Assembly (NCBI GenBank): GCA_963727775.1
Contig: CAVSHB010000002.1
Span: 384,001-448,000, forward strand
Origin: an uncultured Nitrospiraceae bacterium
GTDB taxonomy: Bacteria; Nitrospirota; Thermodesulfovibrionia; Thermodesulfovibrionales; SM23-35
Length of the DNA stretch: 64,000 bases
Direction: 5' to 3'
Shown piece by piece: positions 21,001 through 33,000 of the stretch (positions are counted from its first letter, which is position 1; the number at the start of each line of letters is the position of its first letter). A program made the position numbers.

Positions 21001-24000
21001 TGTGGGCATACCCTGCCGCAGACAGAAGGGAATGCGTTGTCTTCTTTTATCTTCCAGGCAGCTTCTATAAATTTTCCTTCTTTCACTAATTTTATAAATG
21101 AAGGGATATCCACCGATACAGGACATCCGCTTCTGCATGAAGGTTTTAAACAGCTGAGACATCTCGACGCCTCTTCGACGGCCTCGTCGCGGGTATATCC
21201 ATAGGGGACTTCCATGAAATTCCTCGCCCTTGCCAACGGCTCCTGTTCCCTCATCTTTATTCTGTTTTTGGGTTGTTTGGCGGACTTTTTTTCTTCCATT
21301 ATTTGGCCCCCGTCTTTTCCTTGTACCGATCGAAGGCTATTTTTTCCTCCTCGATATACATCCTCTGTCGCGACATGAGCAAATTAAAATCAACTTTGTG
21401 CCCGTCAAATTCGGGGCCGTCAACACACGCAAACTTTGTCTCTCCGCCTACTTCCACCCTGCATGCGCCGCACATGCCTGTCGCATCCACCATGATTGAA
21501 TTCAGGCTGACGACGGTTTTTGCACTGTGCTTCTCTGTTGTCACGCACACAAATTTCATCATGATGGCGGGACCTATCGCGTAAACCAGTCCGATGCCTT
21601 TTTCTTCTTTGAGAAGTTCATCCAGCGGAACGGTCACTACCGCCTTCCTGCCGTAAGAGCCGTCATCCGTTACAATGATCAGTTCATCCGACACCTTGCG
21701 CATCTTGTCTTCCCAGAAGATGAGGTCTTTCGTCCTCGCGCCGATGATCGAATAAACCGTATTGCCTGCTTCTTTGAGAGCCCTCGCAATCGGATATGTG
21801 GGAGCTATCCCGACACCGCCGCCGACACAGATTACCTTCCCGAAATTATCTATGTGAGAGGGCATTCCGAGCGGCCCGATAACATCTAATATATGATCGC
21901 CTTCATTTAATGTCCCCAGGTGATGGGTCGTCTTTCCCATTTTCTGAAAAACTGTCGAAATCGTGCCTTTGTCCCTGTCGAAATCGGCGATTGTCAAAGG
22001 TATCCTTTCGCCCTGCTCATGGATCCTCAAAGTGAAAAAATTACCCGCCTTTGCTTTTTTTGCGATATCCCTTGCTTCGATTTCAAATAATGTGACTAAA
22101 TCCGATAACTCCTGTTTCCTTAAGATTTTAAACATCAAAAGCTCCTTCCTTTTTATAGATAATGGACGGTATCACATATTATATACACTTTAAAGCCGGA
22201 CTATTTTTTTAAAAAACAAAAAACTTTTCCGTAAACCCATTTTTTACTTGACAAGAGTCTTCGCTTTTCAGTATAACATTTCTGCTTATGCCAGGAACGT
22301 ATTTACCATTAGACTATTTGCCGGTTTTTATTTTCATCGTTATCGCGATGGCCTTCGGATTCGGCGCTCTTCTTCTCGGCATGATCTTCAGGCCGAAAAA
22401 ACCATACTATGAAAAGCTCATGCCCTATGAATCCGGCATCACCCCGACGGGAGAACCCCGCTACAAATTTTCGATAAGGTTTTATATCATCGCCATGCTG
22501 TTTGTCGTATTCGATGTGGAAGCAATTTTTCTTTATCCCTGGGCAATAGTATTCGACAAAATCGGAATGTATGCATTTGTAGAAATGGTGCTTTTTATCG
22601 CAGTACTGCTGGTCGGATATCTTTATGCCTGGAAGAAAGAGGCCTTTGAATGGGATTGAAAATGAGAGGTGGAAAATGATCGATACATCAGCCATGGGAC
22701 TTATTCAGGTAGAACCGGACGTAAAAATATTGCCCCCGAATATCATCATCACCTCCTTTGACAAGATTATTAATTGGGGAAGGTTGTCTTCAATGTGGCC
22801 GACCACTTTCGGTCTCGCCTGCTGCGCGATAGAGATGATGGCGGCAGGCGCAGCCCATAATGATTTAGACCGGTTTGGGATCATTTTCAGAGGTTCGCCG
22901 AGACAGGCGGACTGCGTGATTGTAGCAGGTACCGTCACAAAGAAAATGGCCCCCGTAGTCAGAAGGGTCTATGACCAGATCCCGGAACCGCGGTATGTGA
23001 TAGCGATGGGAAGCTGCGCGTGCACGGGAGGGGTTTTCAAAACTTACAGTACTGTCCAGGGATGTGATTCTTTCCTTCCCGTTGACGTATATGTACCCGG
23101 TTGTCCCCCGAGGCCTGAGACATTGCTTGAGGGGTTGATAATGCTTCAGGAAAAGATCAGAAAAGAAAAGGCAAGGTGGAGTCCATGGCGGTAACGGAAG
23201 TAAGAATTTCGATATTTCCCGCAGGGCTGAACCCGAAAGATATAGCAGAAAAGGTGAAGGAAAAATTTCCGGAACAGGTGGTCGATGTCGCCGAATTCAG
23301 AGATCAGGTCTCTATTATCGTTAAAAAGGACCAGATAGTCCCGATCCTGAAATATCTCCACGATGACCCCCTTTTGAGCCTGGACCATCTCCAGGACCTT
23401 ACCGCTGTTGATTATCTCAAGAAAAAAGATGTCAGGTTCGAGGTTGTCTATAACCTTTATTCAATGAGATATCGCCATCAAATACGCATCAGAGCGCAAG
23501 TGGCGGAAAACGATCCAAAAATTGGCTCCGTGGTTCCTATTTGGGCCGGCGCCGATTGGCACGAAAGAGAATGTTACGACATGTTCGGCATCGTGTTTAA
23601 CGGACATCCCGATCTGAGGAGAATCCTGCTGCCCGAAGACTGGGAAGGACATCCCTTGAGAAAAGATTATCCTTTGGCGGGACCTGAACTTGAAAAAGAT
23701 TGGCCGGGGTTTGTTGATGTGCTCAAGAGATCAAAAGAATTGAGAGAGTTTGAGTGGGATGGATAAGATGATCCAGAAAGAAGCAGAGAAGATATTCGAG
23801 ACAAGAGAACTTAATGTAAACATGGGGCCGCAGCACCCTGCAACACATGGTGTTTTGAGGCTTGTTCTTGATATAGACGGCGAGACAATCGTCAAGGTAA
23901 CTCCCCATATCGGATATCTCCACCGCGGCATCGAAAAGCTCGGGGAGAGCTTGAGTTATTTTCAGGCCCTTCCGTTGACGGACAGAATGGATTATGTGTC

Positions 24001-30000: not shown

Positions 30001-33000
30001 TACTTCGTTTATGATAGGCGTATTCTGCTCACTCGACTTTTTCCTTTTCTATATTTTCTGGGAGGCCATGCTTATCCCCATGTTCCTCATCATCGGCGTA
30101 TGGGGAGGTCCGAACAGGGTCTATGCGGCAATAAAGTTCTTCCTGTATACCCTGGTCGGCAGCGTGCTCATGCTTGTCGGCATAATCGTGCTTTATCTTT
30201 ACGCCGGGAAGACATTCAATATCCTTGACTTAATGACTAAGACATATCCTTATACGATGCAGCTGTGGCTTTTCTGGGCATTCTTCGCGGCATTTGCCGT
30301 AAAAGTCCCGATGTGGCCCGTGCACACATGGTTGCCTGATGCCCATACGGAAGCCCCTACAGCGGGCAGTGTGATTCTGGCGGCCGTGCTTATTAAGATG
30401 GGGGCGTATGGTTTTCTCAGGTTTGCTCTGCCCTTATGCCCTGAGGCCTCAAAAGCGATGACCCCTGTTATGCTGACACTTTCAGTGATCGGGATAATCT
30501 ATGGCGCTGTAATATGTCTTGCGCAGACAGATCTGAAGAGGCTGATTGCATACAGCTCAGTGAGCCATATGGGTTTTGTGACACTGGGGATATTTGCCCT
30601 GAACATCCAGGGACTCGAAGGCGGGATACTGCAAATGCTGAACCACGGCGTCGTTACCGGAGCGCTCTTCTTGTCCGTCGGGATAGTTTACGACAGAACA
30701 CATACAAGGAAGATCGCTGATTACGGCGGCCTCGCATCGGTCATGCCTATTTATGCCGCGTTCTTTATGGTATTTACCCTTGCGGCGATCGGGTTGCCCG
30801 CAACGAACGGTTTCATCGGTGAATTCCTTATCCTTCTCGGAGGGTTTGCGGCCAGTAAATGGGCGGGAGTGCTCGCATGCACCGGAATAATCATCGGCGC
30901 CGGATACATGCTCTGGCTTTATCAGAGGATATTCTTTATGGAGACGAACCAGAAGATCATCGGTCTGACCGACATGGATATAAGAGAAACGATAACACTC
31001 ATCCCTATGCTTATCCTTGTTTTCTGGATAGGCATTTATCCGAATTCATTCCTCGGTTTCATGCACGCGTCTGTTCAGCATCTCCTGGAAAGAGTTAATT
31101 CGGGCGGAGTACAGGAAGCGAACGCCGCTAAAGCCTTTATGGAGGTTGTCAGATGAATTTCCGGCTTCCCGATATCAGCCTTATGATGCCTGAACTTACA
31201 ATGATTGCCCTGGCATTGGTAGTCCTGCTCATTGACCTTTTAATAAAGAAGAAGGAGGTAATAGCATTAATAAGCATGGCGGGAGCAGCCCTTGCATCGT
31301 TGACTCTCTTCGGATCACCGGGAACAACCTTCGGGACCATGTATATTTCGGACGGCTACAGCACATTCTTCAAGCTGATATTCCTTATTAATGTAATACT
31401 GACTGTTTTAATTTCCATTAAGTATATCAATATCGAAAAAGTCAATTACGGAGAATATTACAGTCTCATTCTTTTTTCCACAATCGGCATGATGATAATG
31501 GCGTCCGCGGGTGACCTTATTGTGTTGTATTTAGGGCTTGAGCTTATGGCACTCAGCACCTATGTTCTTGCGGGATTCATCAGGCAGAATATTAAATCGA
31601 ATGAGGCGGCCCTGAAATATTTCCTTCTCGGCGCTTTTTCTTCAGCGTTCCTTTTATACGGCATATCATTAATCTACGGCTTAACAGGCACAACAGATAT
31701 AAAGGCGATAGCATCTTTTATTACGGAAAAAGGTCTTGCCGGCAACTTCTCGCTCCTGCTCTCCGTCATATTTTTTACGGTTGCCTTCGGGTTCAAGATC
31801 GCTGCCGCGCCATTCCACATGTGGACGCCGGACGTATATGAGGGCGCACCTACATCAATAACGGCTTTCATGTCAGTAGGGCCGAAGGCCGCTGGGTTTG
31901 CAGTGCTTGGCCGTGTTTTCATGGTTGCATTCGCATCGGTTAAGCTCGAATGGGCAGCAATACTTATCCCAATTTCAATACTCACAATGGCCATCGGCAA
32001 TATCGTTGCCCTGTCGCAGACGAATATCAAGAGAATGCTCGCGTACTCGTCAATAGCCCATGCCGGCTATGCCCTCCTGGGTGTTATAACCGCAAATAAT
32101 GAAGGGCTTGCGGGTATGATGAATTACCTCATGATCTATGCGTTTATGAATATTGGGGCCTTTGCGGTCATCATCATGCTGAGAAGCGAAGGCTTCAAGG
32201 GTGAAAGCATATCCGACTATGAAGGCCTGTCAAAGACCCATCCGCTGGCCGCGATGCTCATGCTGATATTCATGTTCTCGCTTACGGGAATTCCGCCGAC
32301 AGCAGGTTTTATCGGCAAGTTATATATCTTTATGAGTGCCATCAATGCGGGATACACGTGGCTTGTCGTGGTTGCCGTGATGTTCAGCGCTATTTCCGCA
32401 TACTTCTATCTCAGAATTGTGATTTACATGTACATGAGGGACCCGAAAGAAACAGTTGTGTTGAGCACATCTTTTTCTAATGGAATCGCCCTTGGAATAA
32501 CAGCAGTTGCGGTACTGTTTATCGGCGTCATGCCGTCATTTCTCCTTGACCTTGCCAAGGCTGCAATAAAAGGCTTCTAAGAAGTTTTTCACTTGCTGCA
32601 AGGAATGATATCCGACGGTTCTTCTTTATTGATCAACGAAACGTTACAGTCTATTCAAAGGCGGCATAGCGTCAGATCATTCACAGACCGTGAAGTCTCC
32701 GATGATCTTATAACCGTCTTGCTTATGGCGGCTAATTCCGCGCCTTCCGCGCATAACCAGCAGTCATGGCGGTTTGCCGTAATTAGGGACAAGAAGAAAC
32801 AGGAATTGGCGCATCTCGTAACCTCCAATGCGGGCAGCTTTCCGAAACCTGCGTCAACCCTGCTCCGAATGGCTGCGCGCAGCATCATAAGCGCCCCGGT
32901 CACTATTGCTGTCGCGAACACCGGTGAGCTGATCGAGCACGGCGCCCACCTTTTCAAAATTGAGAAAGAGATGGCAAAAGATTTCTTCCGCACCATGGAG

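What a model noticed while it worked through the whole genome (the two positions that open the first line are those of the whole stretch)
22288..32580. Complex I subunit NuoD with an inserted 2x[4Fe-4S] ferredoxin domain in an 11-subunit nuo operon without NuoEFG
In the nuoABCDHIJKLMN operon g01941-g01951 (no nuoE, F, G) the NuoD gene g01944 (C2:407759-409234, 491 aa) is about 90 residues longer than normal NuoD: residues ~320-375 are a complete bacterial ferredoxin domain with two CxxCxxCxxxC motifs ([24 protein letters not shown]) spliced into the middle of the 49-kDa fold. The insert is kept (67-96% identical) in NuoD proteins of 486-505 aa that, where named, all come from Nitrospirota; its nearest relatives outside NuoD are the C-terminal ferredoxin domains of NuoF/HydB-like flavoproteins. 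I propose a built-in electron-entry module that stands in for the missing NADH-dehydrogenase module.
Evidence so far: Pfam: Complex1_49kDa hmm 1-181 at aa 131-311, Fer4/Fer4_10/Fer4_7 at aa 321-372, Complex1_49kDa hmm 155-271 at aa 372-491; NuoD1/NuoD2 of Thermodesulfovibrio yellowstonii (397/401 aa) align end to end over 481-484 columns, leaving an ~85-residue gap. Insert sequence and operon table. Protein search with residues 290-400: 63 proteins at E<=1e-15; 61 carry Fer4 families plus PF00346 (NuoD), 2 are 618-aa NuoF-like proteins (63 and 55% identical); all source names seen say Nitrospirota, Nitrospira, Nitrospirae or Thermodesulfovibrionales. In 40 sampled genomes of the order the whole 76-aa probe matched inside a 494-524-aa frame only in the 3 genomes of family SM23-35 (68-78%); elsewhere only the [...]
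(Added by a program. Inside this text positions count along the whole contig: contig position 384,001 is position 1 of the stretch shown here. "Call 12" and the like, gene names such as g00115 and contig names such as C1 are that model's own, and its searches are not shown. The text may have been shortened before it was handed on; [...] marks where a part breaks off. The agent that wrote the report below was given it as the finding of a first reader that could run no searches.)

Follow-up and report, generated by a model that had tools for sequence, protein, structure and literature searches.

The report
Ferredoxin domain grafted into complex I
In one family of uncultured anaerobic Nitrospirota bacteria, a respiratory complex I without its NADH-oxidising head carries a two-cluster iron-sulfur domain, probably borrowed from an electron-bifurcating enzyme, spliced into its NuoD subunit; it is most likely a built-in entry port for ferredoxin electrons and a testable candidate for what feeds such head-less pumps.

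Summary
Confirmed. NuoD (23759-25234, 491 aa) has a 90-residue insert (aa 311-400) holding a 2x[4Fe-4S] domain; all eight cysteines are kept in 61 of 61 homologues, and the quinone-site residues are intact. The insert resembles the C-terminal B3/B4 ferredoxin-contact domain plus tail of a BfuB (HydB-type) subunit that relatives encode beside nuoA. Of 57 family genomes, 43 carry the insert; orthologues of neither that Bfu module nor the lineage's own NuoG were found in them, while 8 of 10 insert-less genomes keep the Bfu module. The NuoI hairpin is five residues shorter in 26 of 26 insert operons and long in 33 of 33 others read, including EFG-less ones. In one genome, insert and short hairpin are two separate mosaic patches. 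Hairpin and adjoining NuoD helix form the ferredoxin pocket in cyanobacterial NDH-1; the insert sits beside it, not in it. Best reading: a ferredoxin:menaquinone proton pump with a tethered two-cluster relay to N6a (0.55). Cluster binding, geometry, donor and direction are untested. This genome also has a separate full complex I. No paper found in nine searches that could bear on it; this scan noted the insert four times before in other genomes.

The parts
23759..25234 (+). nuoD, 491 aa, 49-kDa subunit with internal insert; quinone-site H30, Y79, D131 (= Nqo4 H38, Y87, D139) invariant; no [NiFe] CxxC pairs
   Evidence: (TIGR01962 557 bits, cut-off 459); model pLDDT 93.3, pTM 0.89, TM 0.95 to 7vb7_Q
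24689..24958 (+). 90-residue insert, aa 311-400: linker, ferredoxin domain, tail helix, linker
   Evidence: alignment with 9 insert-less NuoD of relatives
24713..24889 (+). 2x[4Fe-4S] ferredoxin-type domain, aa 319-377; Cys 328/331/334/338 and 358/361/364/368; net charge +6 to +8 over the 53-aa core
24908..24934 (+). tail helix aa 384-392, shared with the C-terminal tail of 613-650-aa BfuB/NuoF-like proteins
   Evidence: (P0063 63% over 82 aa)
26300..26830 (+). nuoI with both cluster motifs (N6a, N6b) and a shortened hairpin
26531..26581 (+). NuoI hairpin between the cluster motifs, 17 residues instead of 22-23; acidic tip lost
22288..23766 (+). nuoA, nuoB (N2 cysteines present), nuoC
25234..26298 (+). 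nuoH, directly after nuoD (no nuoEFG)
26827..32580 (+). nuoJ, K, L, M, N: membrane arm with three antiporter-like subunits
19857..22138 (-). nfnA (279 aa) and nfnB (480 aa), NfnAB/NfnSL-type transhydrogenase, divergent from nuoA across 149 bp; remnant of the cluster that holds the Bfu module in relatives
   Evidence: (NF004862 and TIGR01316 above cut-off; the name NfnAB is my reading of these hits)

Best explanation
An 11-subunit, proton-pumping ferredoxin:menaquinone oxidoreductase with its own electron-entry relay. The C-terminal B3/B4 domain and tail of a BfuB (HydB-type) subunit was spliced into the NuoD loop before helix 397-415; both the canonical NuoEFG and the neighbouring Bfu module are gone from the carriers, and the NuoI hairpin lost five residues and its acidic tip. 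Reduced acidic ferredoxin (from 2-oxoacid oxidoreductases, CO dehydrogenase or NfnAB) docks on the basic domain; electrons go B3/B4 -> N6a -> N6b -> N2 -> menaquinone and drive the membrane arm. Shown: domain, conservation, likely donor family, gene losses, coupled NuoI change, intact quinone site. Inferred: cluster binding, distance to N6a, donor, direction.
For: Eight Cys in 61 of 61 homologues; 30 of 90 insert positions invariant in 55 sequences. Closest outside relatives are BfuB C-termini including the tail; 18 inserts form one group, 100/99. B3/B4 lie within 13 A of bound ferredoxin in Nfn-BfuABC (PMC12018979). 0 of 43 insert genomes of the family have an orthologue of the Bfu G or full-length B subunit or of the lineage's NuoG; 8 of 10 insert-less ones have the Bfu pair; G280, in another family, has the insert and neither G type, while 3 of 4 congeners searched have one or both. 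G440 reads nfnA-nfnB-DRTGG-ATPase, the Bfu cluster minus its E, HndB, F and G genes. NuoI hairpin 17 in 26 of 26 insert operons, 22-23 in 33 of 33 others read, 10 of them EFG-less. In G440 insert and short hairpin are separated by a genus-type nuoH. NdhI hairpin plus NdhH K315/K321 form the ferredoxin pocket of NDH-1 (PMC6992706, PMC7021789); these map to about NuoD 411-418. Genome has a VitK2_biosynth gene, dsrA, three POR-family loci and a 61-aa ferredoxin of charge -9. Fd to MK yields 67-82 kJ/mol against 58-70 for four protons; NADH 40-48 (potentials from PMC9304861).
Against: No cluster distance was obtained. The mapped pocket residues lie 11-18 residues past the C-terminal junction, so the insert is beside the NDH-1 pocket, not in it. 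Insert (+6 to +8) and the shortened hairpin are both rather basic, which fits room-making or a shared ferredoxin surface better than a direct salt-bridged contact. Most counts come from one clade; only about three events are independent. EFG-less operons without any insert exist in the same family and order (10 loci), so the insert is not required for head-less life. The Bfu module is inside the nuo operon in only one genome seen (G196); in 15 of 20 other-family loci a canonical nuoEFG sits there, so Bfu as former partner is inference. Core identity alone does not separate Nuo-adjacent BfuB (59-69%) from other HydB domains (57-67%) and the donor branch is unresolved.
Confidence: 0.55

Rival explanations
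1. The insert is itself a tethered, swinging ferredoxin: it takes electrons directly from a soluble enzyme (NfnAB, a 2-oxoacid oxidoreductase, or the E/C subunit of a Bfu core encoded elsewhere) rather than from free ferredoxin.
For: nfnAB is directly divergent from nuoA in 16 of 20 insert loci with upstream DNA. In G405 and G392 the neighbour is NuoE plus a 1061-aa NuoF-GltD fusion that lacks the B3/B4 domain. In Bfu enzymes B3/B4 receive electrons from the C1 cluster (PMC12018979). Linkers flank the domain.
Against: nfnAB adjacency is inherited from the older cluster (also in G326, G430, G431, G420, G441, G442) and is missing in G280 and in G352, which has pntAB there. The domain is basic, unlike the genome's acidic small ferredoxin. 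The fusion neighbour was seen in only 2 loci.
Confidence: 0.18
2. Same wire, opposite direction: proton-motive force drives menaquinol -> ferredoxin to supply the Wood-Ljungdahl pathway.
For: B3/B4 is the ferredoxin-reducing exit in Bfu enzymes (PMC12018979). The genome has ACS/CODH-like and formate-THF-ligase-like genes (read from sequence starts, not scanned).
Against: The step needs 67-82 kJ/mol; four protons give 58-70, and the operon has only three antiporter-like subunits. The genome has Rnf, an easier route to reduced ferredoxin.
Confidence: 0.12
3. The domain is off-path: a structural cap over N6a after loss of NuoG, or a redox or oxygen sensor that gates the enzyme.
For: No geometry links it to N6a. 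A cap would also explain the shortened NuoI hairpin.
Against: Ten EFG-less operons manage without a cap and keep the long hairpin. A pure cap would not need eight invariant cysteines and the basic GEKK loop.
Confidence: 0.12
4. Neutral passenger or assembly artefact.
For: All carriers seen are metagenome-derived; a few copies are broken by frameshifts (G403, G417, second copy in G426).
Against: 61 distinct protein clusters, 43 genomes of the family, an independent contig across both junctions, invariant ligands, spread to another family.
Confidence: 0.03

Closest known systems
Nuo-Bfu: complex I with a BfuABC (HydABC-type) input module, predicted for Nitrospirae (clade 39) by Schut et al. 2022, PMC9304861
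   Same: Same Q- and P-modules; menaquinone as predicted acceptor; the insert resembles the BfuB C-terminal 2x[4Fe-4S] domain and tail; G196 has the Bfu genes between nuoD and nuoH.
   Different: No BfuA, B or C in the operon or as orthologues in the genome; no flavin, so no NADH use and no confurcation; only the ferredoxin-contact domain remains, inside NuoD.
Cyanobacterial/chloroplast NDH-1 (ferredoxin:plastoquinone oxidoreductase; 6KHI and related; PMC6992706, PMC7021789)
   Same: 11 core subunits, no N-module; the two elements that bind ferredoxin there (NdhI hairpin, C-terminal NdhH fragment) are the two that changed here.
   Different: NDH-1 binds a free [2Fe-2S] ferredoxin 9.6 A from N6a through a long basic hairpin with accessory subunits; here the hairpin is shortened and two extra clusters are covalently attached; no Ndh accessory genes in the operon.
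BfuB/HydB C-terminal B3/B4 domain (HydB 7p5h_B, StnB 8oh5_B, NfnB 9n5u_B)
   Same: Sequence match over the ferredoxin domain, E 1e-13 to 3e-12; same cysteine spacing.
   Different: Moved from the end of a flavoprotein into a loop of a quinone-reducing subunit; attached at both ends.
11-subunit complex I-like enzymes of anaerobes (Desulfitobacterium, PMC11238625; Thermodesulfovibrio sp. N1, PMC5165239)
   Same: nuoABCDHIJKLMN without nuoEFG; ferredoxin proposed as donor; direct donor still open.
   Different: Their descriptions, in the passages I saw, mention no extra domain in NuoD; insert-less NuoD of 395-418 aa is the rule in the 19 NuoD read from 20 other-family loci.

Membership tests
Complex I NuoD / 49-kDa subunit | Profile match above curated cut-off | tested here: met
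   TIGR01962 557.5 bits (cut-off 459.35), PF00346 381.5
Complex I NuoD / 49-kDa subunit | Quinone-site His, Tyr, Asp (Nqo4 H38, Y87, D139) | tested here: met
   H30, Y79, D131 invariant in 55 sequences; offset 8 to 2fug_4; residues named in PMC6992706
Complex I NuoD / 49-kDa subunit | Uninterrupted 49-kDa fold without cofactors | tested here: not met
   90-residue insert with eight cysteines; core fold kept
Group 4 [NiFe]-hydrogenase large subunit | N- and C-terminal CxxC Ni ligands (recalled definition) | tested here: not met
   Sequence shows DRMDY and GECDR at these places
[quoted passage not shown] | nuoA-D,H-N without nuoEFG in the operon | tested here: met
[quoted passage not shown] | Quinone reduction coupled to proton pumping | not testable with these tools
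   needs biochemistry
Nuo-Bfu | bfuABC genes in the nuo cluster | tested here: not met
   none in the window; no orthologue of the Nuo-adjacent B or G subunit in the genome (best 61% and 43%, formate-dehydrogenase type)
NDH-1 (photosynthetic complex I) | Long basic NdhI hairpin forming the ferredoxin pocket | tested here: not met
   hairpin five residues shorter than in canonical subunits
NDH-1 (photosynthetic complex I) | Ferredoxin as electron donor | not testable with these tools
   inferred only
BfuB C-terminal B3/B4 domain | Two CxxCxxCxxxC motifs in a ferredoxin fold, homologous to BfuB C-termini | tested here: met
BfuB C-terminal B3/B4 domain | Binds two [4Fe-4S] clusters and contacts ferredoxin | not testable with these tools
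   motifs and charge only

The most novel reading that the evidence does not exclude
Electron bifurcation split over two complexes: the low-potential B3/B4 exit of a Bfu enzyme now rides on the proton pump, so that soluble flavoprotein cores (the B3/B4-less NuoF-GltD fusion next to nuoA in G405 and G392, NfnAB, or the formate dehydrogenase HydBC core) dock transiently and hand low-potential electrons straight into complex I without free ferredoxin.
Probability: 0.12. Interest if true: 0.9.

Novelty: new variant of a known kind. Interest (0 to 1): 0.72.

Why it matters
The direct donor of 11-subunit complex I-like enzymes in anaerobes is an open question (PMC11238625). Here evolution has marked the entry site: a ferredoxin-contact domain fixed to NuoD, with a matching change in NuoI. 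The soluble NuoBCDI arm with and without 90 residues is a direct test. It would also be a NuoD with its own iron-sulfur clusters, which none of the solved 49-kDa chains matched here shows, and a concrete step from an NADH- or confurcation-fed complex I to a ferredoxin-only pump, which suits menaquinone energetics.

Tried and rejected
Complex prediction of the insert (aa 314-396) against NuoD 12-310, NuoD 401-491 and NuoI 1-160: no answer, score 0.00 in two runs; not used as evidence. First AlphaFold run with a shallow alignment failed (pLDDT 59.5); the deeper alignment worked but the tool gives no inter-domain distances. No RNA holder listed; the one RNA run laid gave only two short pieces. 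Longer fusion forms: none scored among 57 candidates (weak evidence). Trying to display the NdhH alignment through a stand-in query gave no hit at the threshold, so the NdhH mapping rests on alignment end-points and is good to about one residue. Rejected: my early idea that the Bfu cluster is the normal N-module of this operon; 15 of 20 other-family loci have canonical nuoEFG instead. Rejected: that the short NuoI hairpin only reflects loss of NuoG; ten EFG-less insert-less operons keep the long one. Rejected: strict vertical descent of insert-bearing NuoD; the core tree splits G440 off (AU p = 0.006; G003 was dropped by the motif filter and some near-identical rows were left out). Promoter scan found 0 sites. 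Literature: searches returned no paper; others returned papers whose listings or searched passages do not describe the insert; two searches were for background. Subscription journals and supplements were not searched.
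Full report
OBSERVATION. The window holds nuoA, B, C, D, H, I, J, K, L, M, N at 22288-32580 on the + strand, with nuoD abutting nuoH. 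NuoD (23759-25234) is 491 aa and passes the NuoD cut-off (TIGR01962, 557.5 against 459.35). Against solved 49-kDa subunits it aligns in two pieces that are contiguous in the target: query 15-301 and 392-491 to 8ba0_D 42-328 and 329-428. Against nine insert-less NuoD of relatives the extra piece is aa 311-400. It holds Cys 328/331/334/338 and 358/361/364/368. With a 140-row alignment AlphaFold2 gives pLDDT 93.3 and pTM 0.89, with a ferredoxin pattern at 319-377 and a helix at 384-392; the core superposes on 49-kDa chains (TM 0.95 to 7vb7_Q). H30, Y79 and D131, equivalent to the quinone-site residues Nqo4 H38, Y87 and D139, are invariant. There are no [NiFe] CxxC pairs, so this is a complex I subunit, not a hydrogenase.

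CONSERVATION AND RANGE. A search with aa 295-400 returned 65 proteins from 91 candidates: 61 NuoD with the domain and 4 NuoF-like. All 61 keep both motifs; 30 of the 90 insert positions are invariant in 55 full-length sequences. In 401 genomes sampled from the phylum the whole insert matched in a 494-524-aa frame in this genome, in 12 of 13 others of its family and in 1 of 7 of family f2 (G280); the other listed matches were partial and mostly in HydB-sized frames, and 288 weaker matches were not listed. In all 57 genomes of the family: 43 with the insert (two of them only as broken or split reading frames, three cut by a contig end or a stop), 10 without, 4 with no match. Among the 150 best representatives at 50% identity, only the family's own cluster carries this insert; one other has a different ferredoxin domain inside NuoC. 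Of 16 named insert loci, 15 titles name Nitrospirota taxa and one says Nitrospinota; that locus is 91-95% identical to G280 in NuoB, D, H and I. An independent metagenome contig spans both junctions.

ORIGIN. The best outside match, P0063, is a 618-aa HydB/NuoF-type protein, 63% identical over 82 residues, and it shares the helix after the ferredoxin domain. Proteins of this kind (613-650 aa) are encoded in relatives in a cluster of sensor kinase, regulators, often nfnAB, a receiver-NuoE fusion, an HndB-like protein, the F subunit, an 818-835-aa NuoG-like subunit without the formate-dehydrogenase cysteine motif, and DRTGG/kinase/PHP genes. The cluster usually lies divergently next to nuoA; in G196 it lies between nuoD and nuoH. 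This fits Nuo-Bfu, predicted for Nitrospirae by Schut et al. (PMC9304861; passages seen). The 18 inserts tested form one group (100/99) among these domains, but the donor branch is not resolved on 81 columns, and core identity alone is not decisive (59-69% to Nuo-adjacent BfuB, 73-74% to P0063/P0064 of unknown context, 57-67% to other HydB domains). The shared tail is the better marker. Against my first reading, 15 of 20 loci from other families have a canonical nuoE, short nuoF (about 420 aa) and nuoG inside the operon, 6 of the 20 with the Bfu cluster beside nuoA as well. The Bfu module is therefore a neighbour and probable alternative input; partnership is inferred. In a Bfu enzyme, B3/B4 lie within 13 A of bound ferredoxin (PMC12018979; passages seen).

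WHAT WENT WITH THE INSERT. (a) Loss of input modules. Orthologues of the Bfu G subunit (64% or more) and full-length B subunit occur in the same 8 family genomes, all insert-less; in the 43 insert genomes the best G matches are 44% or less over long stretches, mostly formate-dehydrogenase type. The lineage's canonical NuoG occurs in 3 family genomes, all insert-less. G427 and G428 have neither insert nor these orthologues. G280 (99% complete) has the insert and neither G type, while congeners G358 and G396 have both, G196 the Bfu type and G154 neither; its operon follows lpxK as in G196. G440 reads nfnA-nfnB-DRTGG-ATPase, the cluster with exactly the E, HndB, F and G genes missing. These are metagenome bins, so absence means not found. 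(b) NuoI hairpin. The stretch between the two cluster motifs is 17 residues in 26 of 26 insert operons read and 22-23 in 33 of 33 others read (27 with NuoD checked as insert-less); three loci could not be read and one. Mitochondrial subunits also have the five extra residues. Ten EFG-less operons without the insert keep the long acidic hairpin, so the change follows the insert and not the loss of NuoG. (c) A two-patch mosaic. G440 NuoD aa 10-310 is 95-98% identical to insert-less congener G442; with the loop removed the two group at 100/99 and monophyly of insert-bearing cores is rejected (p = 0.006, 29 rows). Its NuoH is 91-92% identical to congeners and 74-82% to five other relatives; the NuoI C-terminus is 92-94% to congeners; yet its hairpin is short while theirs is long. 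Insert and hairpin thus changed together without lying on one block. The direction of transfer is unknown, it is one case, and a chimeric assembly is not excluded. (d) nfnAB is directly divergent from nuoA in 16 of 20 insert loci with upstream DNA; two have a NuoE/NuoF-GltD/G-like module in between, one has pntAB, one lpxK. The adjacency is inherited.

POSITION. In cyanobacterial NDH-1 the ferredoxin pocket is the NdhI hairpin plus a C-terminal NdhH fragment, 9.6 A from N6a (PMC6992706; passages and section 9 read), with NdhH K315 and K321 in contact (PMC7021789; passages). From alignment end-points these map to about NuoD 411-412 and 417-418, which is 11-18 residues after the insert, along predicted helix 397-415. 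The insert is therefore anchored about one helix length from the pocket, with linkers on both sides: beside it, not in it. That the same helix touches NuoG in canonical complex I is recalled, not tested. No cluster distance was obtained.

GENOME CONTEXT. The genome (96.8% complete) also has a complete nuoA-N with fused NuoCD and NuoEFG on C4, Rnf, a formate dehydrogenase with HydBC-type subunits, a Hyf-like cluster and ACS/CODH-like genes (the last four labels are my reading of sequence starts and neighbours), dsrA, a VitK2_biosynth gene, three POR-family loci and a 61-aa ferredoxin of net charge -9. A fused NuoCD-type second subunit appears in 7 of 43 insert genomes, so it cannot be the general source of an N-module. 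The insert core has charge +6 to +8, as do most BfuB domains (+4 to +9).

MECHANISM. Most likely (0.55): reduced ferredoxin docks on the tethered basic domain, electrons pass through its two clusters to N6a, N6b, N2 and menaquinone, and the membrane arm pumps protons. With the potentials tabulated in PMC9304861, ferredoxin to menaquinone yields 67-82 kJ/mol and NADH 40-48, against 58-70 for four protons at 150-180 mV, which gives a reason to keep the ferredoxin branch and drop the NADH branch. Rivals: direct hand-over from a soluble enzyme to a swinging domain (0.18), reverse operation (0.12), cap or sensor (0.12), neutral or artefact (0.03). An in-path role in total is about 0.85.

KNOWN OR NEW. 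It works like NDH-1 and descends in part from Nuo-Bfu but fails a defining feature of each. EFG-less operons are known in Thermodesulfovibrio (PMC5165239; passages) and their donor is open (PMC11238625; passages). Searches for the insert returned no paper; further searches gave listings, and the passages searched in PMC9040806, PMC8165549 and PMC9326234 do not describe it. The library lacks most subscription papers and I saw no supplements; the Schut et al. supplementary figures may bear on clade 39. This scan noted the insert on four other genomes; one note is marked as partly fallen, without details. Verdict: real, a new variant of a known kind, interest 0.72.

Noticed in passing
P0094 (630 aa), aa 106-153: A NuoCD fusion with a different 2x[4Fe-4S] domain inserted in the NuoC part; one cluster member is named Ca. 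Altiarchaeales. Looks like an independent graft of a ferredoxin domain onto the Q-module.
   Followed up: partly
L074:4393-10695 (G405) and L174:88-6120 (G392): NuoE, a 1061-aa NuoF-GltD fusion lacking the B3/B4 domain (68-69% to the Nuo-adjacent BfuB over aa 4-544) and an 860-893-aa G-like subunit lie between nuoA and nfnAB in two insert genomes.
   Followed up: partly
L043:14500-17289 (G352); same layout by ORF size in L139 and L144: pntAB membrane transhydrogenase genes take the place of nfnAB upstream of nuoA.
   Followed up: no
L068 (G442), L070 (G441), L059 (G232): The F-G gene pair of the Bfu cluster is tandemly duplicated.
   Followed up: no
L056:7052-7984 and equivalents: NuoE-like [2Fe-2S] subunit fused to an N-terminal response-regulator receiver domain; a receiver-GcvH fusion lies nearby.
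   Followed up: no
L079 and L080 (G426): Two insert-bearing nuo operons in one bin, with frameshifts; the bin has 7% contamination.
   Followed up: no
window 22248-22277 (+): TTGACA, 18 bases, TATAAC ending ten bases before the nuoA ATG: a possible promoter with a very short leader; the scanner did not call it.
   Followed up: no
G000 C4:33095-50359: A second, complete complex I operon with fused NuoCD and a 917-aa NuoG, after pentose-phosphate-like genes and before Rieske/cytochrome b-like genes; only 45% identical to the window's NuoD, possibly acquired.
   Followed up: partly
G000 C1:1430848-1433604 and C1:953644-956130: Formate-dehydrogenase-like frames with one in-frame TGA, probably selenocysteine.
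   Followed up: no
window 36742-37962 (-): 406-aa ORF that looks like an IS256-type transposase (recalled likeness, not scanned), next to a low-GC stretch at 38-40 kb.
   Followed up: no
window 32593-33228 (+): Nitroreductase-family gene directly after nuoN; present near nuoN in several close relatives only.
   Followed up: no
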